Below, in pieces: positions 1,465 to 58,150 of a stretch of 64,000 bases of DNA. Numbering within the stretch: the stretch's first letter is position 1; each line of letters opens with the position of its first letter. Below the pieces are notes generated by a model, which was not told where the DNA came from, did not search any database, and saw only the letters and a list, made by a program, of their open reading frames with translations. Source of the stretch: Phoronis australis (taxonomy: Eukaryota > Animalia > Phoronida); NCBI GenBank assembly GCA_002633005.1, contig NMRA01000500.1:191853-255852 (forward strand), read 5' to 3'. The position numbers and the translations under genes are program-made.

Positions 1465-2820
1465 AGGCGGATACATGTTTAAATGTACAAATACAACAAG
1501 AGTTTCAGTGATACATACAAGATTACTATTATTAATGTAAAAATCGTGTAAATTAATAATAATTATGCACAATGCCCTGCCGATGAAGATAAAAAACCTT
1601 ACATGTTATACAGATGCAGAGCACAAATAAGGAATTTCGTCCATTATGAAATGACCTATGGCTTAGATAAGCTCGTGCAGTCAATATCAGTTTAAGCAAT
1701 AGATCATTTCGCTAAGAGATAGAAATTTTGCAACTTTTTCAAGTAAAGCCATGTTGATACTGGTATCAAGTTTTCTATACCCATTATGCAAAAGATAATT
1801 TTGTCAAGAACTTTACTGTCCAATCAGAGATGTGAGCAGCTCCGCGGGGAAGTGGCCTTCAAATTGCCTCTAAATTTATCGTCCCAATCTGTACAAACTA
1901 ATAATGTCATGACTGCGTAGAAGTTGAAATAACGTTAAAGACACTGACAAATCTGAAGCTAGGGTATATGCTGTTCGATAAATAGAATGTAATTGTAAGG
2001 GGTACTGAGGATACTCTTTTGAGAATAGATAAAATGGTTTAGAGATAAATGAGTCCAGATGATCGTTCATGTAGAGTGATAAGAGGAAAGGATTTGGTAC
2101 GCTACATTAAGGTATTCCAGCATTGGCGTAGGTGGACGAAGACGACAGTGATAAGACTCCATCAATCCGCACTTAGTAAGTGCGGCAAGTCAGATGGGAT
2201 AGTGCCTCAGAAACCATAGGATTGCAACTTGTAAAACAATAGATCGTGCTGCTTCAGGCAAGAATCTGAACTGTATTATAGATTAGGTCGTTAGAGATAG
2301 CGTGTTCAAACATTTGCTGGCTTGTAGTTTAACTGATATTTTCCACAAGAAGTTTTAGTTTTATAAGCCGATAGTTTTCAGTGTCACTGTTCAAATTCTT
2401 TTTGTGTAGATGTATCATTACTCAGAGTTCCCAATAATTATATGAATATACGCAAATAAAACAACAAAAATGGGTCACTGAAACTTTTGGATATAATAAA
2501 TTCCTTCGTCAACAGAATCAGAAACAATTCCTCTCATACTGGTATTTCTTGTACAATGTTATCAAAAGGACTTGAGTTCCTTTGCGATTGTTTTGCTTAT
2601 TTATCACCCATTAGGTCGGTTCCGTCATTTTGTTTCGTCATTTTTTAATAGTTTCCTGACCTCAGCGGATTAGGGAAGCCTTCTATGTCTAAGATGTATT
2701 CAAATGTTTTGCTTCGGAATTGGAAAGTTCGTTGTTGGAGCAATGTGGTTTTTGGATGTGANATGGAAGTTAACTCATGTTCCAAAAGAATCCGATATAG
2801 ATTTGGGAGAGTGATAAAAA

Positions 2821-3177
2821 TGCGTAAAAATGGCCTTAGTAATAAGTAGTGAAAATGATGTTTTTGTAGGCTAAAATGGGAGTTTTTCTTGTATGTTATT
2901 TTTTCTCCTTTCTGCTATATAGTTATTTTTTTCAATAGCGTGAAGCGATGATGTGCTGTTGCTGACAAAATGTCACCTACTTCAAAGTACTATTATTTGC
3001 TATTTTTCAGAAAAAGTACAAAGTGGCCGTAAAAAGGGTTAAAAAAACCTCGGAAACTCTTAAAAATTCAGGCTCAGGTTTCTTTTGACAAGGCCAGTTG
3101 ATGTGCTAAGTTTCAAAAAAATTGGTGATTTTGCATATATAGCCCACCATCTGGTTTTTATATGGAATTGCTCTTAA
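2821..3177. repeat. Copy 2 of the TTAA-terminated transposon-like end (Kolobok/piggyBac-type target site)
   Basis: Matches 925-1311; homology stops exactly at TTAA 3174-3177. Superfamily inferred only from the TTAA boundary. Confidence 0.75.
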
Positions 3178-3197
3178 CTACTTATACTACTTAATAC

Positions 3198-3215
3198 GGA
3201 CATCACACTTCTCCT
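3198..3215 (-). other. Polypurine tract plus 10-bp stub of the 3' LTR
   Basis: The - strand reads AGGAGAAG-TGTGATGTCC. TGTGATGTCC also occurs at 7016-7007 in the 5' LTR. The match does not extend further. Confidence 0.55.
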
Positions 3216-3362
3216 AGGACCAAGGGTAAGGCACAAACCCAGAGACCGTAGTCAGCCTCAGAGTATATAATAACGGGCAATTACCCAAGGGACTAGGAGA
3301 AAACCTGGGGCATAGGTTATGACCCAGGCACACCAGGATGCTGAACCACTTCTAACAATTTG

Positions 3363-4211
3363 TTAGAGATGGTAAAGCCGCCTGGCATTCCTGGTGGAAA
3401 CAGCCAGGATGTCACGCAGCGGACGACGAGAACGCTGCGCCACCTCCATAGCTACTTCCCCCAGGTATTGGGGCGCCATTGGGGCTTGCCCAATGGCGAG
3501 GTGCGGTGAATCAGACTCCAGGAGGAGTCGATTCAGCGGAACCTCTTGTAACCCCTTATTTTGGAACTTTAGAAACTGCCGCACATGACCGGCGAAGCCG
3601 AAGTGGCAGTTTCTAAAGAACCCCGTCCCCCGGAGTACATCCTCGGGCGCACCTCCAAAACTATGGAGATGCAAACCCAAGTCTGCATCACAGTGGCGCT
3701 TCAGGAGATCAAAGACGAAGTCTTGTCCCTCCAAGAAGCGTGGATTGTCGGGGGAACCACGAAGGTGGATCACAACGACTTTGTTTTTGAAGCTGGGGGA
3801 GCTGGCCCGAACCTCCGCAAAGATTCGCACCATCTCCTCCAACGCTTCTTTTTGGATGGCCGAGTCCTCCCGGGCCTCCAGACCGACCTCGCCTAGGCCA
3901 GCTACAAAGGGCTCCTTTAGTAGCTGGGGGAGACGCTCCAGAACACCGGGATTCGTTGTTCCAACCCGTTTGGGGTGGATGCCCACCACAGCTTTCCAGC
4001 CATGTGGGAAACGGGAAGTCTCAACGTACTTCCAGTTTTCCACATCGCAGAAAACTGCAACCCCACCAACCAACTGCACAGGTTTTTGAGAAATCCGTGG
4101 CAGCTGGGTGCTGAGCATCTGATCGATCGTCAGCATCCTAGTCTCAGTGATATGACGCTGAGCCCAGGATGCCGACAAGCGATCCAGATGGAAGTGGCCA
4201 TCTATAGCCAA
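3363..4211 (-). CDS. tatD: TatD-family metal-dependent DNase (TIM-barrel amidohydrolase fold), probably the C-terminal domain of element ORF2
   Basis: 282 uninterrupted codons with TatD motifs in order: DGHFH, VGIHP, LGEVGLE, VIHLR, LHLHSF, FGFAG, LLLESDSP, C-terminal NARRLY. No introns and no ATG at the domain start (TTG). Confidence 0.92.
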   Translation of the reverse strand: MAIDGHFHLDRLSASWAQRHITETRMLTIDQMLSTQLPRISQKPVQLVGGVAVFCDVENWKYVETSRFPHGWKAVVGIHPKRVGTTNPGVLERLPQLLKEPFVAGLGEVGLEAREDSAIQKEALEEMVRIFAEVRASSPSFKNKVVVIHLRGSPDNPRFLEGQDFVFDLLKRHCDADLGLHLHSFGGAPEDVLRGTGFFRNCHFGFAGHVRQFLKFQNKGLQEVPLNRLLLESDSPHLAIGQAPMAPQYLGEVAMEVAQRSRRPLRDILAVSTRNARRLYHL

Positions 4212-4919
4212 ATTAGGAGGTGGTCCTGCCTCCAGTGAAGCAGACGGCCAGCCTGTTGGTGTAGGGTGTTACCAGAAGACGCCTCCTGAATATTAATAGT
4301 GTCCATAGGGGCATCTACAAACTCAGGAGGTGGATCCTGCAAAACGACAGGGTTGTGGGGCACCTTTGAACCCCCTGAAATGGGATCCGGAACCAGGGTG
4401 TGCACAAAATCTAATGACTCAGAATTAGCAACAACCTGGGTACTAGATACCGCTTTACCACTCAACTCAGACTTATCTATCAAATTAACCGGAACTAACA
4501 CTGGGGTATTAATCACATCAGTATCAGTAATGGGTAACTCAATCGGACAAATTCTGAGTGAGCACCGAACTTTGGGAGGCTGGACACTCCATGTCACCAA
4601 GGGAATTCTGAGCACAAGGAATATCAGTAGAGAAGGCAACCAAATCATGAACTACATCACAAGATCTAGCCAAGACAGGTCGACCTCTCCCCCGACACTC
4701 ATCGTGCACAGAAATACCTTGAGAAGAAGTGGACAAACTCCCTGCCCTAAAACAGTCTAACAGATTAGTCGATAGGCGTTTGATGTTTTTATTTAATGAG
4801 CCTAATAGACCATCCGTGGGACTGAATTTCTTAGTGGGGCGGTCTGAGGATACCCTACTATTGGTATCACGAGATTGGACTGGAGTTAGACCTGATCGTC
4901 CAGCCCCAACTCGTTTAAA
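4212..4919 (-). pseudogene. Low-complexity S/D/P/V-rich N-terminal part of ORF2 (linker between frameshift site and TatD), with two compensating frameshifts
   Basis: The -1 frame relative to gag is open from 4919 to TGA at 4539. Coding-like sequence continues in the 4202-4648 frame and returns to the -1 frame near 4270, where it runs into TatD. No protease, RT or integrase motif seen. Confidence 0.55.
4880..4919 (-). promoter_or_regulatory. Programmed -1 ribosomal frameshift signal (U UUA AAC plus downstream hairpin)
   Basis: Gag frame reads GAT TTA AAC (heptamer 4919-4913), 8 sense codons before the gag stop. A TGA closes the -1 frame immediately 5' of the heptamer. After a 5-nt spacer comes a stem GGGGCTGGAC/GTCTAACTCC. 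Confidence 0.7.
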
Positions 4920-5848
4920 TCACCGGACTTATCCCCAAAGGATGTACGACGAATTCTAGCAGACTGCGGGCTACGGCACGCAGACTGGTAGTGACCAAAC
5001 TTACCACACTTAAAACACATTACTGAAGGTCTTTGTGGGGAAGTTTGGGGGGACCTAGATAGTGGAGGGGATCTGGATGGTTTTGGATTAGAATCCAACA
5101 ATTTTAATACCCTCGACAAATCTGAGGTAATGCCCCTAAAATTTGAACTCATAGTCTGGGACATACTCTTAAGTTCTCGATGTATAAGGGCATTGTCTTC
5201 TTTAAGACCTATTTCAGAGTTGACCTTAGCCATCTGAGACTCTAAAGCATGCATCCTAGACTCAACCGCAGAGTTTGAAGCAGAGGATGCTATTGGACTG
5301 AATTTAAGTGCAGGTTTTTTGTTATGTGAAAGCAGGTTGACAGAAGCGTCGTCCTTGCGCGATGGTGAGCCCTCGAACCAAACAGACCGACGGTTTTGAT
5401 TTGCCATCAATCGATGGGTCGTTGCGAACCACGCAGCTTTAGACTCTGCCTCAGCTAGGGACAAAGGGGATGAGTTCATCACCTGCATACCTACAACCTT
5501 ATCGCGTAACCCAAGGGAGAAACGGAATACAAGATCTACTTTTTCTTGCTCCGAAGGGTTCAGGAAGGCTTTTAAAAACAACCTGTTTAACCTACACGCC
5601 CAGTTCTCAATAGATTCCCCCGGCTTCTGCTCGGCGTATTGGAATTCAAGGCGTAGGACCTGGGTGCAGTCAGTCGAAGAAAAATGTTCTGACATGTGTG
5701 CAACCACGTCATCGAAACCGGAGTCTGGGTTCGTTCTCATGAAGTTAAGGAAGAAATGCAAGGCCACATCGTCCAGACACATTCCTAACTCCGAGACGCA
5801 CTTGTCTTCGGACCATAAGTTGTCCTTAGCCAAGCGCTGAAATTTCAA
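4886..5848 (-). CDS. gag: Ty3/Gypsy-type Gag (retrotransposon capsid domain, coiled coil, CCHC zinc knuckle)
   Basis: 320 open codons: KFQRLA..W..L...L.D.ALHFF; Q.PGESIENWACRL (major-homology-like); FSLGLRD; SP-rich stretch; CFKCGKFGHYQSAC (CX2CX4HX4C). The true start is upstream (about 6340) across a mutated linker. Confidence 0.88.
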   Translation of the reverse strand: MKFQRLAKDNLWSEDKCVSELGMCLDDVALHFFLNFMRTNPDSGFDDVVAHMSEHFSSTDCTQVLRLEFQYAEQKPGESIENWACRLNRLFLKAFLNPSEQEKVDLVFRFSLGLRDKVVGMQVMNSSPLSLAEAESKAAWFATTHRLMANQNRRSVWFEGSPSRKDDASVNLLSHNKKPALKFSPIASSASNSAVESRMHALESQMAKVNSEIGLKEDNALIHRELKSMSQTMSSNFRGITSDLSRVLKLLDSNPKPSRSPPLSRSPQTSPQRPSVMCFKCGKFGHYQSACRSPQSARIRRTSFGDKSGDLNELGLDDQV

Positions 5849-6043
5849 AAAAAAAGTCGTCCGATTTGCCTTTTTCCCCTTGAAAAACTAGCTTAGACGG
5901 GGCATTTGGCCTTAAACTATAGGGACGGGTGTGGGTAGACGGACCAACCGTTCGGCTACCAGAACTCTGGGCAGGCACAGGCGAAGAAGAATCCTGCTTA
6001 GAGGAGTACTTCCGTCTTATTGTAACGGGATTTGTTTAACCTG

Positions 6044-6340
6044 TCACAGGCCTGGGCAATGCCACTTAAGTCCTGGGGCAAACGGGTACGTACAGGACGT
6101 ACTACCCAGAGGAAAGGTATCTCGGGACTGAACATCACCATACTGGGTGAAATCAATGCCAGAAATAGCATTCCTCGTCAACCTCCATCCGGAATGGATG
6201 TGGTTAATATTTTCTGGGGTTATCGGCTGAGTTTGCCGAAAAGCCAGAATGGATTGGGCAATATCTTCTGTCATGCCCGGGAGCTTGAATAACTCTTGGG
6301 AAAGACAGAAGTTGACCGGAATCATGTCTTGGAAAGACAT
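6044..6340 (-). pseudogene. N-terminal part of gag with a ComEA-like helix-hairpin-helix motif
   Basis: MSFQDMIPVNFCLSQELFKLPGMTEDIAQSILAFRQ fits the HhH pattern iNxAsxeEL..LPGiG...A..Iv.yR. Same frame as the gag ORF; the 5849-6043 linker has stops and compensating indels. Confidence 0.7.
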
Positions 6341-6682
6341 CCTAAACACACGGGGCTTCGTCTTAGGAAAACCACGTGGTCACGTGACCTTTCTAGAATT
6401 CCTAGAAAGGTTCAAAACTCTACCTAATATATAAAATAATAAATACAAACTATACTATATACAATTATACCAATAATAAATACCTATTTACAAAAACCTA
6501 CAATTCCTACACTAAACTAACGCAAAACGCTTGAAATACTCGTAAACCTGAACTCAGGCACTGCAAAAGCAGTGACGCACGTGGCTGTCAAAATGGGCAC
6601 GAAAAAAAAAACAAGTTATGAAAACTTATTTCCCGCCACCACCGAAAGACACGCACGCCGCTCCAACACCGGGAAATAGGTA

Positions 6683-6694
6683 CCGACTACGCCA
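6683..6694 (-). other. Primer-binding site complementary to the tRNA-Ser 3' end
   Basis: The - strand reads TGGCGTAGTCGG, 2 nt after the LTR-terminal CA. It is complementary to ...CCGACUACGCCA of eukaryotic tRNA-Ser(AGA) as I recall that sequence. Confidence 0.8.
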
Positions 6695-6696
6695 AA

Positions 6697-7019
6697 TGTT
6701 GTAATAATAAAAGGAAGGGGTCGGCTGCCTAAGCAGACACACAGGTTCGGGCCTATTAACACGGTGCAAGAGAAAAGTCCGGAGTATACTCACATTACGT
6801 CCATACAGGACGGCAGCGAACTCCAGAAGGCCATCGCCTCTGTTGGCCCGGGCCAACAGATGCGATGGTCATTGCCTACAGAAGGCCCAGACGATCTTGT
6901 CACGTGGGCTTGAAGGGTGACTGGTCACGTGATAGAAGGGTGACCTCGGCTGGGCTCTTCTGGCGTTAGATGTCGCACCAGGCCAAGACCAACATTGTTA
7001 ACAAAAGGACATCACAACA
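6697..7019 (-). repeat. 5' LTR (323 bp)
   Basis: TG...CA ends with a 9-bp terminal inverted repeat (8/9 match), directly followed by the PBS. Contains CACGTG boxes and a 38-bp palindrome. Confidence 0.75.
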
Positions 7020-7054
7020 TAGAGACGCCACAGCCGAGACTGACGTCGACATTT

Positions 7055-7241
7055 ACTACATTCCCAACGCTTGCACTTCGTCAACTGCTGTGTCAATGAG
7101 CATGTACGCCTCTACAATGTCAGCATCTCGTTTCGCAGCTCAGTTGGCACTAAGCCCCCTGAGGTTACCACGTCCACTCAAAAGACTTACAGCATGCGCA
7201 ACTAAATTTGATCCATTCATCATGGACTACTTCAAACCTTG
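7055..7241 (-). pseudogene. hAT (PRKRIR/THAP12-like) transposase remnant
   Basis: Translates QGLK*SMMNGSNLVAH...LRGLSAN*AAKRDADIVEAYMLIDTAVDEV, resembling the L..L...LQ.RD.DI..AY..I segment of hAT transposases. Contains in-frame stops. Confidence 0.5.
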
Positions 7242-8095
7242 ACGATGTATCCTAGGACCCATTTGGATCTCTTGCAATTTTCGAAATAAACGTCCCAATG
7301 TATGAACACTTGAAACCCGAAGTACTAACATCAAATAAATGCCCATGGGCATGGGCGTTTCGTCGGAGGGGGGCCTTTCTGCGGAAATTCCCAGTAAAGA
7401 AAACGGCAGTGGTGCTTATTGCAGGTACATGTAGAAAGACGGTAGGTGTTGAGGTCGGCACTAGGGCTCCTTAGGAGGCCCATTGAACATCGCACGAGTC
7501 CTGCAAGACTTTGTTGTGAAAATACAGCCTCCCTGCAATTTCTGGTACTGTACACTGTTCGCGAATGCAGTCACTTTGTCAATGTGAGTGCCCCCTTGGT
7601 CATTCCTTGTATAGACATAACTTGTTAAAGTGCATCTTTAAACAGACTCGCGACCAGACCACGGCGCCCACCACAATGTATAGCAATTCTTCGGAAAACA
7701 TGTTTTTTTCAAAAGTATTACATGTACATGTACAACTTTACTATACACTAATCAAATTCGAGTTACAAACGCGTGGGGTGTAATAGGATGACACGACATG
7801 ACAGATGAGGTAAAAACGTTGCACCTCAATTCGCCTGAGTATCAGGGTTGCAGCACCACAGTATTTCCCCTAATCAAATCAAAACATATCTTAGAGTAAA
7901 GAAACTAGTTATCTAAAGAAATCAGCTATAGAGCTGCTCTTTCAGCGGTGGATCCATCTAAAATGCTTGGCTACTTCAGAAGTGTCGTCGGAAGCGCGCG
8001 CACAATTGATCTCCGGGGTTTTGCCGATGGCCAACGAAGATTCGAAACGCGTTGATTTTCATAACAGCAATTCACAATGCAAAAAATCTTCAGAG

Positions 8096-11970: not shown

Positions 11971-14900
11971 ATATTTATCTTCTATGTATCAGGTATCAAT
12001 GGCTCGTCCCAGTATTCCTAAGGAGGTAATTCGACATTTGTTGTTAATTGCACTACAAAAGTACCTTTTAGGAACTGTATTTACAAACCAATGGTATATC
12101 CATGGGATCACCTCTCGTACCGACTTTTGCTGATTTTCACATGTGCAACATTGAAACTAAGGTTATTGATAGTCTTCAAGGAAAGCCGAACATGTACTGC
12201 AGGTATGTTGATGATATGTTTATGATTGTCAACCATGATAAGCTTATGAAGATCAAACTCTCTTTAGAGCAAAATTCTGTATTAAAATTCACGCATGAAT
12301 TACAGTTAAAACAAGCTACCGTTCTTAGACGTACTTATTGATTATGATGAATTTGGCATTGAAACCTCAGTATACAGGAAACTACATATGATGGGGTTTG
12401 TTTACATGAAACTAGCCAATGTCCTCTGATATATGAATTCTCTGTTTTGACAAGCTTTTTGAAAAGAGCATATTCCGTTTGCTCAGACTGGAAAACCTTC
12501 AACTCTGAGTGTAATCGCATTATGCAAATTATGATAAATAACGGTTACAGTAATAAGTTTGTTGATGAGAATATGAAGCTTTTCATAAGCCGCTTGCATA
12601 GGCCTGTGTGTTTAAAACAACCAAGTGGTTGTACTAAGAAACTATTCTACTGCAACCAATTCCATTCACGTTATATTGAAGATGAACGAGTTTTAAAACG
12701 GATCGTCTATAATAATGTTAAGACCGTTAAGCCAGAAGATAGTTTTAAGTTATTTATATATTACCAAAACCATAAAACTAAAGATCTTGTTGTTAAAAAC
12801 AATATGTGCTCAAAGTCGGTCGAGTGTTAGCCAAAACTGACTTGATTTATCAGTTCAATTGCCCCCACAACAAATGTATTCGTTCAAACACTGATTGCTC
12901 AAGGTATGTTGGTTATACAACTTGCACTTCATCTCGCCGGTTATCTATGCATTTACAAAATGGATCAATTAAAGATCACTTCCAAACACTCCACAAACAG
13001 AAAATTTCTCGTTCAGATATTGTTGACAGTACCATTGTCCGGCATTTCGAACGTGACTCCTTTCGTTTGAAACCATCATCCACAGATTCTGCATCAGGCA
13101 TTGTGACATTGGCTTCAAGAATGTCAGTGAGCCATGATTTTAGGCGAACACGTCGTGACTGAGGCTGTTGGCAATGGTCCGATTTTCGTGACAGAAAATG
13201 CCATGTTGATCGCATTGGCTATCCTGGCATGGTATAAATAGAATGTCTTCTGTTCTACTGAGTGATAATTCCTTGCATTCCAACCCAATGAGATAAATAT
13301 AGAAGATATAGCTCATTGTTCCAACCTAGTTAGTGTTCCAACCTAGTTAGACCATGGACCAGGCGAAAAAGCTTTTCTGCTCTCACGACGATGAAGAGGT
13401 GTACATGTGAATATCTTCTATTCTGACGAGTATGCATAAATATTAACTCTCACGTGATTGTATTTATTCAAGTTATTCCACATTACAAGTGATCAAGGCT
13501 CACACGCTATAGTCTAGCAGGTTGAACTCAATAATTATAGCTTTGGTAAAGCGAAAAACTACAAAAATGTCAAATGTTTCACATCATTTCAAAATAAATA
13601 GGTAAAAACTGCATTTTAAGGACTTGTGTGCTATTCGATGTCTTTCATGCCATCACTAGGAAGCACACCCTCTAGTATAATACAACACTTATTTTATGGA
13701 ATATTATTCCAAGCAAGAAAGGTACCGCAGGCCATGCAAGATGGTGCAGATTAAGGCAGGAGAGAAGTAGTAATGAGAATGCCCGTGAAAACCATGTAAA
13801 ATCCAATATATGACCGAAGTCAAGCACATCCCTGCATCAGCTACGATTTTGATACACGACTTCTCTGAAAAAAAAGATTATTCACAATTGTGGCTTACAG
13901 AATATGATACAAGAAGAATTGTGATAAACAGTTTTAAAAACAATAGTAGGCTAAGTGATTAACCACAACATAAGGTGCCCTTCTAAGCTTAACCATGGGG
14001 AACATCATTGGCAGTTGGCAGAGCAGTTTTTCAGTGGATGGAATGGTACTTGAAACCAGGGTCCAGTTTTATCAAAGGTTGCAAGTCTGGTTAAGACCGA
14101 TGGCGAAAATTCAGAAAAAAAACGTTTCAAGAACTTTAAGACTGTCTTTGGTCGTCGGTTTTAGACTTAGACAGAAATGACCCAAGTGGGTTACGCTTTC
14201 GCCTGGACACAACACTGAACGAGGCGATGACTGAAATACTGTTTCAAGAATAATCTTGGCTTCGAAACTCTAAATGGTTATTTTTTACACCATTTTTATG
14301 TGGAAATACCCTGGAAGGACTGGAAAATGTCATTTCAGATGTGCAGGTAATACAATGTCTCTACACCCGGTGGTTTGCCTGTTCTCGAACCGAAATAAAA
14401 CGTGAATGGGCATTAGGTTGCAAAAGATTGCTAAAAATATCAACGAAATTTGTTCCTCGACGGTTTACAGTGATGATCGTTCAGTCTTTTAAAAGCCTAC
14501 ACCGACCAAATTTGAGGTCTACTTTCAGTCTAATCTTAGACCGATTTCGGTCGAAATTAAAGTGCCCAAAACCACCTTGTCACCTCGCCTTTGGCAGGCG
14601 ACAATATGTGTCGAGTGCAACAACATATGACACAATACACCTCTTGGTTTATAACTGACATGGGTTAAATTCCCCCACCTGGAAACAATCTGATTGAGAC
14701 TCCAGCATTCAGTGGCAGATCAAGACCAGCATGTCAAACCACGGTACAAACGAAATGGAGCGAAATCGCACGGAACGCTTCTCCTGTGCGGTGTATATTG
14801 AAGATGCAAAGTCCTTACCTCGACAATGCCACCGTCTCAAGTGGTGGATTTAAAATTCTCTGAGATTCCATTTGGCAGTACGGGGGTGCGAATCGTGCAA

Positions 14901-35409: not shown

Positions 35410-36637
35410 CTGAAAGTTTTAGTGTCCAACCTTGCACATTTACCCAAGAACGAGTATTTTAAGACATATTTTTGTAAACATTTCCATGTGTGACACCCAT
35501 AGGGCACATTTTCAGCTGGGACTATGGATTATCTCCCATGTGAGATTTTACTGACGTTTGGGATTAGCACCATAACATCCAGACAATTCAATTATTGAAT
35601 TAACGTGCCATTACTCATGTCATTTCAAAACCCCAAGAATGTTCGTGTCTGGTCTGCCTACAGTTGATATTCACAGTGACGCGCTCAAGTCAGGTAAAGA
35701 TCTTCTTAGCAGTCCTTAGGTTACGGCACACCCATACCCTTTGTGCAAAAGTATGTGACTTTTAAATTCTGTCCATAAACATTATACTTTGTATCAACAT
35801 TGTATGGTGTGAAAATATAAACTGTGATTTTCTTAGTCATTTACAGTTTTTAAGTCATACTTTTGACCTGTTACCATTTTGTTAAGATTGTTATATTTTG
35901 TATTACCGTACGGTATACCTATACTACAAACCTATTACCGTACGGTATACCTATACTACAAACCTATTACCGTACGGTATACCTATACTACAAACCTATT
36001 ACCGTACGGTATACCTATACTACAAACCTATTACCGTACGGTATACCTATACTACAAACCTGAAATCGATCCTCAATGATCGAAAATAAGGGGAAGCTTT
36101 GTGAGATGGCTTAAAGCCATTCTGCAATTAGAATTTTGCCATTGTAATACAGATATCACAGTTATTTTTGGTGTTAACTGAATTAGTCCTTATGACGGGA
36201 AAACAGCATTTTGTTTGTTTACTTTTTTCTTGTACCATGTTGTTCCTTATTTTGATTTAAGTGTACTTCTAAATGTAATATTTATACTTTCCGGTTAGAA
36301 ATTATATACGGTTCAGACATTCAAGTGGTGTGCATAACAGATATGAGCGACTAAGCCTTGTTGTGATGACATAATATATGAACATTTTGTTAACATAGGT
36401 CACGGTACACTCGCACGATATCCCTGAGGAATCGGATTTGCAAGGTTAAACCTAACATTTATGCGAAAGAAATTGACAAAAACACATCTTATTTTCAAAG
36501 TGTCGCCCAAAATTGAGAAAATAGTCACAAGTTTATGGAAAATGTGATAACATTATGAGCATTTTTGTACACTTTTGGAAGTGATTGGATGGCTGGAAAA
36601 TTGCCCAAAGATGAGGATGAACATGGAAGGTTCCAAA
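35410..36637 (+). repeat. ~1.1-1.2 kb direct repeat, copy 1
   Basis: Highly similar to 37310-38410. Confidence 0.9.
35901..36060. repeat. Minisatellite, 5 perfect copies of a 32-bp unit
   Basis: Unit TATTACCGTACGGTATACCTATACTACAAACC. Confidence 0.95.
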
Positions 36638-37309
36638 ATAGCGGAGTTGCAATGCCGCCATATTGGAAATGGGTCAGAATGTTGCATTGTGGTTAAGCCG
36701 GTAAACAAGTACGTCGGCAAGCGTGGGGGCGAACCGGCCACAGGGAGGTTATACGTGTTGTGTGCCTGGCATGCAATAATACCAGTTAGCGAGATAAAAA
36801 ATTTAGTTACTACCTGTCTCCCAAGGATCAAGAACTGCGTTAAACATGGGTCAGAGACATTAGTAGAGATGGTAGCAAAGGACGACTTTGTGAATTCTTT
36901 CCGACTTGGTAGCATAAAATATGCAGCGCTCATTTTGAGGGCGGCAAGAAAACGTATCTTGGAAACTGCCCAACAATATCTCCCTTCAAAGAAACAGTAA
37001 CAAAATACTCTACGGCGGTTGGTAGTGAAAAAAAAACTTGTTTTCGCTTGACCAGAACCAAGCCAACATGAGCAATTTTGAGGATAATGCCTCTGCACAA
37101 TCACCTGTTCTGGGTCAACACACTTAACGTACGCTCACTATATGTATTTCGCGCTAGGATAAAGCGTGCAGAATATTATTATTTACTTTCTACAAAATTG
37201 TGGTGCATTGCTATCAAAATTCGTTGTTAAATTACGATCATTTTTCATAAAATTGTGTTGGAAGTCCCAGGGCGAAATCTTGCCGACAAATGCGTAGCTG
37301 CCGGTCTCN

Positions 37310-38410
37310 CTGAAAGTTTTAGTGTCCAACCTTGCACATTTACCCAAGAACGAGTATTTTAAGACATATTTTTGTAAACATTTCCATGTGTGACACCCAT
37401 AGGGCACATTTTCAGCTGGGACTATGGATTATCTCCCATGTGAGATTTTACTGACGTTTGGGATTAGCACCATAACATCCAGACAATTCAATTATTGAAT
37501 TAACGTGCCATTACTCATGTCATTTCAAAACCCCAAGAATGTTCATGTCTTGTCTGCCTACAGTTGATATTCACAGTGACGTGCTCAAGTCAGGTAAAGA
37601 TCTTAATAGTCCTTAGGTTACGGTACGCCCATACCCTTTGTGCAAAAGTATATGACTTTTAAATTCCGTCCATTAACATTATACTTTGTATCAACATTGT
37701 ATGGTGTGAAAACATAAACTGTGATTGTCTTAGTCATTTTAAGTTTTAAAGTCATACTTTTGACCTGTTACCATTCTGTTAAGATTGTTATATTTTGTAT
37801 TACCGTACGTACGGTGTGCCTATACTACAAACCTGAAATCGATCCTCAATGATCGAAAATGAAGGGGAAGCTTTGTGAGATGGCTTAAAGCCATTCTGCA
37901 ATTAGAATTTTGCCATTGTAATACAGATATCACAGTTATTTTTGGTGTTAACTGAATTAGTCCTCATGACGGGAAAACAGCATTTTGTTTGTTTACTTTT
38001 TTCTTGTACCATGTTGTTCCGTATTTTGATTTAAGTGTACTTCTAAATGTAATATTCATACTTTCCGGTTAGAAGTTATATACGGTTCAGACATTTAAGT
38101 GGTGCGCATAACAGATAGAGGGACTAAGCCTTGTTGTGATGACATAATATACGAACATTTTGTTAATATAGGTCACGGCACTCTCGCACGATATCCCTGA
38201 GGAATCGGATTTGCAAGCCTAAACCTAACATTTATGCGAAAAAAATTGACAAAAACACATCTCATTTTCAAACTGTCACCCAAAATTGAGAAAATAGTCA
38301 CAAGTTTATGGAAAATGTGATAACAGTATGAGCATTTTTGTACACTTTTGGAAGTGATAGGATGGCTGGAAAATTGCCCAAAGATGAGGATGAACATGGA
38401 AGGTTCCAAA
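37310..38410 (+). repeat. ~1.1 kb direct repeat, copy 2
   Basis: Begins just after a single N at 37308 and carries one variant copy of the 32-bp unit. Confidence 0.9.
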
Positions 38411-41400
38411 ATTCTATGTGTAATTTATCTGGAAAGCAGTATTGTTGCAGGTTGGAAATAAAGATGTTGTACTGGTAATCAAAGGTTTAATTTTCTTTTT
38501 TGTTATTTTCATAATTTGTCTTTAAAATTTAGAATTGCGTTAAGATTTTCATATTAATTTCACAAATCCTGTTTCATAATTTTTTGGTTGCCATACATGA
38601 ATGTTCTGCAGTTGCTCAGTCATTTGTAAGTTGTCCCCCTTGTCGTTGTTGTCAGTATTAGAACACGGGACACAACTCCCATTTCTAAAGTGTCTAAAAT
38701 AATATATGAAATCCTTACAAGTTTGTGATGTGACATAATATCCTATAGAAGTGAGATGTGTGCCAAAAGCACTCGAAGGCCATCGCTTATCAGAGCTTGT
38801 GCACACAGTCGGGTATATTGTGATCGTAATCGTATCTATAAATGTGGACTTAGATTGCCATGGGTCACTCTCTTATTGATCTGTGGAGCATAATTCTGAC
38901 AGAGGAGAAATCATAGGTGATGGAGACAAGTCAAGGAATTGATCTTGTGGAGGTTGAGCCTCTTCTAGGTCAGTACTCAAGTGAAAACTATCTCTGATGG
39001 AGTGACTCAGTGATCTGTGGTTGTGTGATGTAGGCCTAAGGCTTGGACTTGTGGGTGGTTATATACTAGCTAGGATCCAGGATTCTCATCATTGTTGTAG
39101 GATAGTTGTTTCTGTCATAAAACCTGCAAGTACTCAGAATAGACATGGGTCTCATTTTACAGTATCATTTGTTTCAGACATGACATGTTCAAGCAATCCA
39201 TATTGATAGACATGATTACCAGGATGCACTTGTCATTTTGTGCCAAACCTTTTGGCTTTATACTGCTCAAGGGACTCCTCATTCAAAATTTGGTAGTGCA
39301 AATTTTGTTTGTTGCTATTTACTGTGAATGTATTGTCCAAGTTGCTGATGTCACTGAATGCACCACTGACCATCAACTCATCAAGTCCCAGTGCATCACT
39401 GCCCCTTGTGGAGCCTCACTGTTAACCTATTGCTCAAGTCTGTGACCAGACTCTGCTGTGTATTTGACCTGTTTTCGTGGCTGTGTTCAGTCTAGTGTGC
39501 ACACTCAAACCCAACCACAAGAGCCTGGCCCAGACTGTCTCAGTGCAGTAGGGCTGATATTGTTTACTGACAACACTCTGTGTGAGCATTGAACTGCTAC
39601 ACCCATTCTATCTGGTGGATTCTCTTCCAGGCTTTTGCCTGATTGGTGTAAGTTAGTTGACTTCATTTTAGTTTGTGTTTTATAATCATAGACCAGCACC
39701 AGGCCACCAGGCCACCAGGGTAGTGTTCTGTCTGTTATAATTCAGTTCCTGAATGGTGTAACACACCTAGTAGTTATAGTATATTTAGTGTGTATATAGG
39801 GAACCAAGCTGTTCTTGATGTTGCCTTTAGTAGAAATACTGATCCCTGGGTTGTTATGTCAGAGTTGTATTTTGTATGCTGGTTACTGTTACATTGGTGT
39901 GTATCTACTGTGCAATGTAATCTGGTAACACTAGAAGATGATGGCCCAGTGAAAAGTCCTCTTTCATGGTTGTGTATTCTCTTACAACCCATTAGGCAAA
40001 CACCAATGACAGTGCATGTCTTGGAAAACAACCTGAATTAGTTGAAGTTTCTTATGTTATGATGTGTGTAGCTTGAACCATATTATGCTAGCCTGTGTGG
40101 ATATTTGTTTTGCATGATGTTGAATTGCAATTGCATCAAATCTCTCTCAAGCATTTCTCCTTCTTTTGATCTTTCCACGTATTTGTTGAGCAGCTCAGAA
40201 AAACTGAAGTGTTCAGACGCATTAATTCTATTAGATTACTTAGCAAGCTCGCCTGATTATTCGTCTACAGTAAAATCAATATCCTCTTTAGTTCTGATCA
40301 GTCCACTGATTATAGTTCTCTTCCAAATGCAAGAACGAAAGGTGAAGGAAAAGTTTTTTCCATTCTTAAATATTTTTGTTCCAGTTATAAGGGCGGCAAA
40401 AAACATTTGACCAACGTGACAAGGTAGTGTTGAGACTTGATTGCGTTCAATGTTTAATTTTTTTTGTTTACAAAAGCATTGATTTCATGTTTGCCTAATT
40501 GCCTAGGTCTGAAGTACATTTTCATGGATGGTTTCATTTTTGGTTTTTAAAAGCATTGGCAGTGTTTTAATTGACATTGACTAATGAAATTACAGCCAGA
40601 ATTTTAGGAGCAACGCTTCAAGAGCTCAATATTTTGGAACCAGTTGGTATTTAGTTCTTGTTTGAACTTACAAATTTTAGCTCATTTCATTTTCGCAATC
40701 CCTGCATTTGTATTAGACCACCATTTTATGGGATGGGAGCATTAGTATAGTATGTGGGTGTGTGTAAAAGCCTGTTTGTTGACACAATTATTTCCTTATA
40801 GCTAGGTATGTTTAACTGTTTACCACCAGACAGGTCAGTTGCTGGTACTTAAGGAGCTGGTTATTACAATCAGTTTGGAAATTTTCATTACTCCTAATTA
40901 TTCTTATCAGAGCCGGAATCTAATATTCACCTACTGTCAGTTTAAAAACAAATTTCATGTGAGGCTCTCAGGTTTTCATAAGTGTAATAATGCTAAAACT
41001 AGTACAAAGGTCAAACTTTATCTTATTTACAGATGTTATTGCGTTGTTGAGTGCTTCTAGCTTTTTTAGTTATCAACAACCTGCTTTTTCAAAAGTCACA
41101 CCTGGTTGTATTAAGAATGATTATTGGAATGTCATGGGAAATGTGATGCTGCGTTTTACAAGAATGAAACATTAGTATGAATTTGACCATGATTTGTATT
41201 TAATCTTAATGTCATCTTCCTATGATTCCTTCAGTAACATGTGTGCCAAAAAATCTCAAGTACTACCATGTTAGCTATTAACAGACCTACAACCTTTGGT
41301 CATACTCCCCCCTCCTAGTGTTAGCCAGTGGTCAGGAGTTACTTGATCTTGTAGTTACATAACGTATTAGGGTTTTCATACTGCTGGGTTCAGAATGTCT

Positions 41401-57108: not shown

Positions 57109-57990
57109 TTATGCAGTTCCCTTGGACAGTCCTTTCTTTGCAAACCATTCATTACTTTTGTCAGCAGCTATGCCTTCATCGAGCAATGAGTCAGCATTTG
57201 GGTCTTGCCTGGACAATTCACGGAATGCTTCATCTCCAACAAAACAGATTTCATGTCCATCGGGATCTGCCAAAATGACCACTTGAACAGTGGCTTTTCC
57301 TGGAGTGTCCAAGCTAACCAAAGGCGTAAGAATTGTCTGATCAGCGTCTTTCATTTTCTTCTCGATTTCCGGAAGATCATTGGCTGGGCAGGAGAAGGCA
57401 ATCCTTCCATATGCCTTGGCATGGTCAACCACTTTACCAGTGTCACAAAGTTCCAGCTTACACTGGTTCTCGGCAAATCCCATCAGAGCACGCTTTTCAT
57501 CTCGCAAATATAATTTCATTCCGAGCAGTCCTTCCCAAAAATCCACAGAACGTTGCAAATTCGAGGACGCCAAAGAAACAGTCTGTACAGGATCTTCCAC
57601 CGCATCTTTATCCACCAAGACAAATTTATAACCTTCCACCGCCAGAATTATATTACCAGAATCGTCGACGCTGGATGGCCATTCACCCTTCTGTGCATTC
57701 GCCACCGCTTGCTTAGAATGAATAGTGATGCCTCTAAAGTCGTCCCCCATTGCATAGGTACCGAGTCCATAATTATAGGTCAGTTCTAGTACAAAGTGGT
57801 TGTCTTCTGATCCATAGCCGACCATGGACTTACTCCATTTTCCGTCGTACGGGCCGTTACATGCAGCTTTGCAACCTTCCTCGAATTCCTCGTGACGAAG
57901 AAACTTCATGCCCAGGATGTTGCGAAAGAAACTGGCCGTTTTTGTGCGATCACCAATTTTGAAAACGAAATGAAGCGCTCTTCGAGACAT
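57109..57990 (-). CDS. GLOD4: Glyoxalase domain-containing protein 4, intronless, 293 aa
   Basis: [15 protein letters not shown]...[44 protein letters not shown]...GRIAFSCP...[40 protein letters not shown]...DKS.EWF. ATG at 57990. Confidence 0.97.
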
Positions 57991-58150
57991 TGTTACTCCG
58001 AGATAAAGGCGGGAAGTAAAGTCGATGACTGTCAATGAGCGAAACGTACGCAACAAGGACTAGCAAAAACAAATATTTGAGCAAGTTTGGCAAATCTCAC
58101 GTGACGGAAGTAAACTCACTTTATTACCTTCAGTACAAAAGTTTGTAAGT
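57991..58150. promoter_or_regulatory. Probable bidirectional promoter between GLOD4 and RAD52
   Basis: Head-to-head genes; CpG-containing segment with ETS-like (C)GGAAGT motifs and TCACGTGAC-GGAAGT at 58097-58111. Candidate first RAD52 donor at 58276. Confidence 0.6.

What the first reader, a model, noticed from the sequence alone, without database searches (positions are those of the whole stretch)
3198..7019. LTR element in which pol is replaced by a TatD nuclease (HhH-Gag / -1 frameshift / TatD)
Seen: LTR-like 323 bp unit, tRNA-Ser PBS, Gag with CCHC knuckle, slippery site, TatD ORF, PPT and LTR stub, all co-oriented, with no protease, RT, RNase H or integrase motif in the 3.5 kb interior. 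Established: Ty3/Gypsy elements place pol at this position; TatD proteins are housekeeping metal-dependent 3'-5' exonucleases, some with AP-endonuclease activity, and are not a standard LTR-element domain as far as I know. Inference: a family of LTR retroelements has captured TatD and makes a Gag-TatD fusion that would be packaged in the particle, where it could process or proof cDNA or interfere with co-packaged elements. This copy is either a helper-dependent satellite or an internal deletion of a gag-pol-TatD element.
Basis: partly seen in the sequence, partly recalled or inferred. Interest (0 to 1): 0.92.

Follow-up and report, generated by a model that had tools for sequence, protein, structure and literature searches.

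The report
Pol-less Gypsy element keeping TatD nuclease
This is a broken copy of a jumping gene that has lost all its replication genes but still carries its capsid gene, its frameshift signal and an intact gene for a predicted TatD nuclease; complete relatives show that the nuclease is the regular third gene of a little-described branch of such elements, likely brought next to the capsid gene by a deletion.

Summary
The core observation holds. On the minus strand lie an LTR, a primer site, HhH-Gag with a zinc knuckle, a TTTAAAC slip site, an intact TatD frame and no pol.

Three details are wrong. The LTR is 7060-6697 (364 nt), not 323 nt. The 3' PPT/LTR stub is within chance. In this copy Gag is broken and the -1 frame stops at 4541, so it encodes no Gag-TatD fusion.

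TatD did not replace pol. Of 9 related loci, 4 are whole gag/pol/TatD-ORF3 Gypsy elements and 3 more have an integrase-PHD tail just upstream of TatD. They share the Gag, the LTR start and a frameshift stem with compensatory pairs. The window copy lacks pol and the first half of ORF3. Reads show other, transcribed copies.

Still open: whether the pol-less form is an amplified, in-frame Gag-TatD satellite or a one-off deletion. I found no paper on TatD in retrotransposons. This scan noted the same clade earlier in sea-urchin and flatworm DNA, and a pol-less Gag+Rrp6 analogue.

The parts
6697..7060 (-). 5' LTR, 364 nt, TGTAGT...ACAACA, with an internal palindrome at 6831-6868
   Evidence: loose ends at 7060/7061/7064; TGTAGT start in the 5 of 8 relatives that show a purine-tract junction
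6683..6694 (-). Primer-binding site TGGCGTAGTCGG, 2 nt after the LTR end (tRNA-Ser by recall)
   Evidence: related TGGCGCTGCG sites in L001, L087, L088
6340..6682 (-). 5' leader
   Evidence: sequence directly
6044..6340 (-). N-terminal helix-hairpin-helix part of gag; the frame is broken after it
   Evidence: HHH_3 at the start of all 4 complete relatives' Gag, 2 above the cut-off and 2 below
5850..6100 (-). Gag linker, broken by two or three frame changes in this copy
   Evidence: reads of other copies differ in length in this stretch (table 4)
4886..5887 (-). Gag capsid region, coiled segment and CCHC knuckle (about 5017-4976)
   Evidence: 1131 library relatives at E <= 1e-3
4913..4919 (-). 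-1 slippery heptamer TTTAAAC
   Evidence: same heptamer at the same place in L001 and L090, CCCAAAC in L086, GGAAAAC in L088
4877..4906 (-). 8-bp stem 6 nt after the slip site (predicted frameshift stimulator); the gag stop lies in its loop
   Evidence: 40 of 40 cells pair, 5 of 8 pairs change on both sides across 5 elements
4539..4919 (-). -1 frame, 126 codons, low complexity; likely the pre-protease spacer of the lost pol
   Evidence: (only the first ~20 aa resemble L001 pol, E 0.09)
4202..4651 (-). Second open frame, 149 codons; likely the ORF3 spacer in front of TatD. The deletion junction likely lies in or near its first part
   Evidence: 0 of 2000 shuffles have two frames this open
3363..4268 (-). 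Open frame holding an intact group II (HxH) TatD domain (about 4214-3366); first in-frame ATG (4136) lies after the HxH motif
3178..3362 (-). Remnant of the 3' untranslated region; no true PPT or 3' LTR in the window
2821..3177 (.). Unrelated flanking repeat (second copy at 925-1311) where the element's 3' part ends
7061..7600 (.). High-copy repeat cut exactly at the LTR edge: the insertion site
   Evidence: 253, 245 and 147 reads with loose letters before 7061

Best explanation
This is a decayed, 3'-truncated copy of a Ty3/Gypsy element that lacks pol but keeps gag, the frameshift signal and an intact TatD domain, and it likely arose by internal deletion from a clade whose complete members carry TatD at the end of a third gene. 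Shown: the parent layout (LTR, primer site, HhH-Gag, slip site plus stem, PR-RT-RH-IN-PHD, ORF3 = zinc-finger-like domain + TatD, PPT, LTR), and the absence of pol and of the first half of ORF3 here. Inferred: one deletion joined the pre-protease spacer to the ORF3 spacer. Such a form can move only with Pol from a complete helper, which would act on its LTR, primer site and PPT. I put about 55% on the pol-less form having been copied that way, and about 30% on its copies keeping an open Gag-(-1)-TatD frame. For the nuclease I commit, by inference only, to a two-metal 3'-5' exonuclease or hybrid-RNA nuclease acting on the element's own intermediates (trimming single-stranded cDNA or RNA ends, or clearing RNA from R-loops; about 45%). 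Next come interference with host small-RNA silencing (about 30%) and other roles (about 25%). This particular copy is dead as a Gag source.
For: Parent layout: whole in 4 of 9 family loci (L001, L086, L088, L090). An integrase-PHD tail lies directly upstream in 3 more (L087, L091, L092); L085 has an RT scrap; L089 starts inside ORF3. Shared ancestry shows in four separate parts: Gag (E 2e-20), HhH (E 7e-8), slip site plus stem with 5 of 8 compensatory pairs, and the LTR start. Window TatD sits inside one 21-row group, SH-aLRT 100 against 37 prokaryotic rows, and keeps all 9 checked active-site-motif residues. The model has pLDDT 90 and matches TatD/YcfH structures best. Pol, protease and ORF3-N profiles find nothing in the window. 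Reads and contigs of other copies cover all 30 bins; most RNA reads are 90-99% alike. A gap-free contig spans the gag stop and spacer 4572-4929. Deleted forms that keep TatD also occur among relatives (L085, L092). Activities of TatD enzymes: PMC10085689 (passages), PMC10711561 (abstract).
Against: No complete helper was seen in this genome; none is held. The parent clade is known only from other organisms, at 22-37% identity. The deletion junction was not located and no read or contig is shown to bridge it. Depth drops from about 365 to about 130 at the start of TatD; this fits either faster spacer divergence or other forms sharing TatD, and the tool warns that depth is no copy number. The tree is the quick one, the window row is long (1.62), it holds no TATDN1/2/3, and 11 of the 21 'element' rows have no DNA context. 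No function was tested.
Confidence: 0.85

Rival explanations
1. Amplified satellite with a functional fusion: most pol-less copies keep one open frame from the slip site to the TatD stop. A few percent of Gag would then carry TatD into particles, in the place Pol normally takes.
For: The frameshift stem is intact here. Both linker pieces are coding-derived. Linker depth is continuous at about 85-130 in DNA contigs and it is covered by RNA reads, sense-biased in run X7 if that library is of the usual stranded type. TatD has no ATG of its own before the HxH motif. The gag breaks look private to this copy.
Against: Two frame changes separate the slip site from TatD. The first lies where a deletion junction is expected and where the long contig ends (4572). 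At the break density seen elsewhere in this copy (about 3 per 2.3 kb), my rough estimate favours an out-of-frame junction about 2:1. No length difference in 4200-4900 is among the 12 of 37 rows shown. None of 150 Gag relatives has a TatD domain, though frameshift fusions would not be called as one protein.
Confidence: 0.3
2. One-off deletion after insertion: a full gag-pol-TatD element lost its middle and its 3' end in place, and the reads come from full-length sisters that share both spacers.
For: The copy is 1.7-4.1% from the main contigs, broken and 3'-truncated. The 14 listed TatD differences show no third-position excess (7/2/5), as in neutral decay. Relatives' pre-protease spacers are 81-281 codons, so the 115 codons bridged do not exclude a protease further on. 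Junction loose ends could fall among the 393 rows not shown.
Against: No loose end in 4200-4900 is among those shown, only 1% of DNA contigs run on unlike, and coverage has no hole.
Confidence: 0.4
3. Chance adjacency, or a host TatD retrocopy next to a gag fragment.
For: Public annotation names close relatives 'putative deoxyribonuclease TATDN2' in Mytilus.
Against: The same TatD subfamily follows integrase-PHD in 7 of 9 loci. Those annotated genes form clusters of many near-identical members (21 and 17), as transposon genes do.
Confidence: 0.03

Closest known systems
Juno and Vesta LTR retrotransposons of bdelloid rotifers with a DEDDy 3'-5' exonuclease ORF3 (PMC5408684; part 1 of 5 and passages read)
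   Same: LTR element with a non-env enzymatic third ORF predicted to be a 3'-5' exonuclease, catalytic residues intact
   Different: Different fold (TatD TIM barrel against DnaQ-like). Here ORF3 also has a zinc-finger-like N-terminal domain, Gag starts with an HhH domain and integrase ends in a PHD finger.
TelKA2n, a non-autonomous bdelloid family (PMC5408684, one passage)
   Same: Internal deletion removes most of pol while the third ORF is kept
   Different: TelKA2n loses the end of gag and keeps an env-like ORF. This element keeps all of gag and the frameshift signal, and only the TatD half of ORF3.
TR-GAG non-autonomous LTR elements of plants (term seen in search listing; definition recalled)
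   Same: LTR plus gag without pol, presumed helper-dependent
   Different: No nuclease cargo and no retained frameshift signal known to me; plant hosts
Group II (HxH) TatD nucleases: YcfH, YjjV, TATDN2, TATDN3 (PMC10085689 passages; PMC10711561 abstract)
   Same: HxH motif, Glu/His/His/Glu-x-Asp set and fold; best profile hit E. coli YcfH 110 bits, TATDN3 60, TATDN1 46
   Different: A separate subfamily with a GGVAVFCD-type motif, carried by retrotransposons; 19-22% structural-alignment identity to the closest solved TatDs. The donor is not determined.

Membership tests
Ty3/Gypsy LTR retrotransposon | LTR with TG...CA ends followed by a primer-binding site | tested here: met
   7060-6697 and 6694-6683
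Ty3/Gypsy LTR retrotransposon | Two LTRs, PPT and target-site duplication | tested here: not met
   This copy has one LTR and no PPT inside the window. Reads show a purine tract joined to the LTR start in other copies. The window edge is only 3.2 kb away.
Ty3/Gypsy LTR retrotransposon | Gag with capsid region and CCHC knuckle | tested here: met
   frame broken in this copy
Ty3/Gypsy LTR retrotransposon (autonomous) | pol in the order PR-RT-RH-IN | tested here: not met
   Absent here; met in relatives L001, L088, L090 and L086. The copy is a derivative, not an autonomous member.
Named Gypsy clade | RT phylogeny against reference clades | not testable with these tools
   No reference set was on hand
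Non-autonomous (satellite) LTR family | Several insertions sharing one deletion junction | tested here: inconclusive
   Linker is covered by other copies' reads, but no junction was located or bridged
Gag-Pol-type -1 frameshift signal | X XXY YYZ heptamer in phase, 5-9 nt spacer, conserved downstream structure (definition recalled) | tested here: met
   the window hairpin alone folds with z -1.6 only; shifting itself untested
Gag-TatD transframe fusion | One open -1 frame from slip site to TatD stop | tested here: not met
   Stops from 4541 in this copy; sister copies unknown
TatD group II | PF01026 above cut-off, TIM-barrel fold, HxH motif and metal ligands | tested here: met
   95 bits against 27; D5 H7 H9 H80 E109 H150 H184 E233 D235 kept
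TatD group II | 3'-5' exonuclease / AP-endonuclease activity | not testable with these tools
   Needs an assay
Host TATDN2 orthologue | Groups with TATDN2 in a tree; single copy | not tested
   No TATDN1/2/3 sequence was on hand. The family's multi-copy clusters argue against single copy.

The most novel reading that the evidence does not exclude
A helper-dependent Gypsy satellite has, by deleting pol in frame, put a TatD nuclease under pol's own -1 frameshift. It would then make Gag-TatD at Gag-Pol stoichiometry and load a nuclease into particles shared with its helper, where it could aid or sabotage the helper's cDNA, like a defective-interfering element armed with an enzyme.
Probability: 0.25. 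Interest if true: 0.8.

Novelty: new variant of a known kind. Interest (0 to 1): 0.55.

Why it matters
TatD appears to be an unreported third-gene cargo of a Gypsy clade marked by HhH-Gag and a PHD-integrase. It keeps all 9 checked active-site-motif residues in 19 of 21 family sequences at roughly 25-40% identity, which points to long selection for an enzyme role. It is a second, structurally unrelated predicted 3'-5' nuclease in the slot where bdelloid elements carry a DEDDy exonuclease, so the question of why LTR elements carry such enzymes becomes testable with a small soluble protein. It also suggests that some genes annotated as TATDN2-like in molluscs are transposon genes. If the pol-less form is an in-frame family, it would be a natural case of an enzyme taking over the Gag-Pol frameshift.

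Tried and rejected
- No whole genome is held, so paired LTRs, target-site duplications and a helper could not be sought.
- The left continuation of the repeat cut at 7061 is not in the window, so no duplication can be read.
- A decayed protease in the linker was considered and rejected.
- Viral contigs gave 4 distant TatDs (E >= 7e-12) and none with the family pattern.
- The third protein search, with a profile, returned only 3 proteins close to L001.
- The careful tree did not finish; only the quick one is cited.
- No RNA run is listed as a holder; that blank is no evidence either way.
- Sequence and same-genome look-ups of earlier findings were empty.
- Literature: TatD+retrotransposon 21 papers, TatD+Gypsy 2, TatD+transposable element+Repbase 3, TatD+endogenous retrovirus+gag 4, TATDN2+Mytilus 0, helix-hairpin-helix+gag+Gypsy+retrotransposon 1. 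None describes this by title or abstract start.
- 'TatD' occurs 0 times in the main text of PMC6338049, PMC13524379, PMC6238403 and PMC12440569. No supplements were read, and Repbase, Dfam and GyDB could not be searched; they may already hold the family.
- A second-stem (pseudoknot) pairing was seen by eye in the five frameshift regions but not tested.
Full report
WHAT IS THERE. The feature lies on the minus strand. Translation gives an HhH frame from ATG 6340 to 6044, a Gag frame 5887-4886, two linker frames (4919-4539 and 4651-4202) and a TatD frame 4268-3363. Pfam scores TatD at 95 bits against a cut-off of 27; the Gag and HhH hits are under cut-off. A primer site sits at 6694-6683, two bases after an LTR end ACAACA; that it matches tRNA-Ser is recalled. 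No whole genome is held. The host is an animal by inference only: named relatives are from Mytilus and Gigantopelta, and the top Atlas cluster is 97% eukaryotic, commonest Mollusca.

(1) The LTR begins at 7060. In one search, 22 reads run off behind 7060 into mixed flanks (agreement 0.47). A high-copy repeat is cut at 7061 (253, 245 and 147 reads). A further 23 reads and 3 contigs continue behind 7064 into what reads, on the element's strand, as a purine tract: the 3' LTR of other copies. Of 8 relatives examined, 5 show a purine-tract junction and all 5 start TGTAGT, as 7060 does. (2) The 3' stub is a 10-mer internal to the LTR; 180 of 2891 random windows match as well. No second LTR is in the window, whose edge is 3.2 kb away. 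(3) No fusion is encoded here. The -1 frame stops at 4541, TatD's frame opens at 4268, and its first ATG follows the HxH motif. Gag changes frame two or three times between about 6100 and 5850.

THE PARENT CLADE. A scan of part of the metagenome collection kept 80 of 498 relatives. One stood out (L001, E 2e-35, next 5e-19). A family-specific scan of genome contigs gave 50 loci, 8 with E <= 2e-22 (L085-L092). I examined these 9. L001 is a circularly assembled element: HhH-Gag with knuckle, pol with protease, RT, RNase H, integrase and PHD finger, then a separate 712-codon ORF3 ending in TatD, then purine tract, LTR and primer site. L086, L088 and L090 have the same layout; L087, L091 and L092 show an integrase-PHD tail directly upstream; L085 has only an RT scrap; L089 begins inside ORF3. 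The window's Gag matches L001's down to the last residues (E 2e-20) and its HhH matches too (E 7e-8). The slip site falls at the same place, and an 8-bp stem follows after 6 nt: 40 of 40 cells pair, 5 of 8 pairs change on both sides, and 1 of 500 shuffles reaches this (only 5 sequences, structure taken from their folds; the window hairpin alone has z -1.6). In the relatives this signal leads into pol.

WHAT WAS LOST. Profiles built from the relatives' protease (7 sequences), whole pol (4) and ORF3 N-terminal domain (11) find nothing in six frames of the element or the window. Eight left-out controls score E <= 1e-33. The 233 codons between slip site and TatD consist of two long open pieces (0 of 2000 shuffles match). 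I read them as the pre-protease spacer (81-281 codons in relatives) joined to the ORF3 spacer. This is inference; the junction is not located.

THE NUCLEASE. The window TatD keeps all 9 checked residues, as do 19 of 21 family rows (one is truncated, one degenerate). It is group II by its HxH motif (PMC10085689, passages). The model (pLDDT 90, pTM 0.90) matches TatD/YcfH structures best (E 4e-16). The family profile scores YcfH 110 bits, E. coli TatD 74, TATDN3 60 and TATDN1 46. In a quick 58-row tree the 21 family rows stand apart from 37 prokaryotic rows (SH-aLRT 100). The window row is long, 11 of the 21 have no DNA context, and no TATDN1/2/3 was included, so the donor is open. Known activities are 3'-5' exonuclease on ssDNA and AP endonuclease on dsDNA (PMC10085689), and RNA removal from R-loops for TATDN2 (PMC10711561, abstract). 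Family members are publicly named 'putative deoxyribonuclease TATDN2' and fall in clusters of up to 21 near-identical proteins.

OTHER COPIES. Three RNA runs (one study, about 19% of each read) and one DNA contig set cover all 30 bins of 2800-7600. Most RNA reads are 90-99% alike, so they come from sister copies. Run X7 is biased to the element's sense strand if the library is of the usual stranded type; X5 and X6 show both strands, with more antisense over TatD. The main DNA contigs differ from the window by 1.7-4.1%. Reads differ in length at gag breaks, which suggests these are private to this copy. The 14 listed TatD differences show no third-position excess (a small, best-supported subset). 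A gap-free contig spans 4572-4929. But only 12 of 37 length differences and 24 of 417 loose ends were shown, and no finer mapping of the interior is in hand. Whether sister copies share the deletion, and in which frame, is therefore open. Against the fusion: the first frame change lies where the junction is expected, and a rough count of break density favours an out-of-frame junction about 2:1. For it: continuous linker coverage, an intact stem and no separate start for TatD.

HOW IT LIKELY WORKS. Complete members make Gag and, by -1 shift, Gag-Pol (standard Ty3/Gypsy biology; signal shown, shifting inferred). The pol-less form can move only with a helper's Pol (inferred). I put 55% on it having been amplified that way, 30% on an open Gag-TatD frame in its copies, and 40% on a one-off deletion. 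For TatD I favour action on the element's own single-stranded or hybrid intermediates (45%) over counter-silencing (30%); neither is tested.

COMPARISON AND NOVELTY. Nuclease third genes are known from bdelloid Juno and Vesta (DEDDy), and the same paper mentions a pol-deleted family that keeps its third gene, TelKA2n (PMC5408684, part 1 of 5 and passages). Six searches and four term look-ups found no description of TatD or HhH-Gag in these elements. Supplements, Repbase and Dfam were not seen. This scan had already noted TatD third genes in sea-urchin and flatworm Gypsy elements and a pol-less Gag+Rrp6 element. My reading was formed from L001 before those look-ups; they are not independent support. 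Verdict: a real feature, a new variant of a known kind, interest 0.55; the fusion-satellite reading has probability about 0.25 and interest 0.8.

Noticed in passing
window 57112-58059 (-): An uninterrupted 316-codon frame for a GLOD4-like glyoxalase protein (GLOD4_C E 5e-37): an intronless gene or a retrocopy.
   Followed up: partly
window ~4058, reads of run X7: 12 reads join a primer-site-like sequence directly to the middle of TatD, and one DNA contig skips 4127 to 6875: smaller deletion forms of the family exist.
   Followed up: no
window 6823-6879: An LTR variant lacking 55 nt around the 6831-6868 palindrome is common in all three RNA runs (26, 23 and 18 reads).
   Followed up: no
window 2821-3177 and 925-1311: Both copies of this repeat end at the same place next to TTAA; possibly the end of a TTAA-targeting DNA transposon (recalled resemblance) that interrupted the element's 3' part.
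   Followed up: no
L001, L086-L090 ORF3; P0001-P0005, P0009: A conserved domain of about 170 aa (CPxxxC...H...H, then a PxNSxxxLxHWR-type motif) precedes TatD. No Pfam match was found in L001 ORF3; left-out profile E <= 1e-33. Function unexplained.
   Followed up: partly
L085-L092: Eight Gypsy-TatD contigs are filed in two 'Sedimenticola' bacterial MAGs; they are likely animal DNA misbinned into them.
   Followed up: partly
L092 1-3008 and 7762-10769: A 7.8-kb unit with integrase-PHD and ORF3-TatD but no gag or RT hit: another deletion form that keeps TatD.
   Followed up: no
P0008 (Gigantopelta): A family member that has lost several metal ligands, echoing earlier notes of pseudo-nuclease TatDs in flatworm elements.
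   Followed up: no
window 12363-12827 (+), 35410-38412, 11291-11617/19046-21047/33170-34930: A 155-codon frame without a Pfam hit, a 1.8-1.9 kb tandem duplication with a 32-nt array, and dispersed repeat copies.
   Followed up: no
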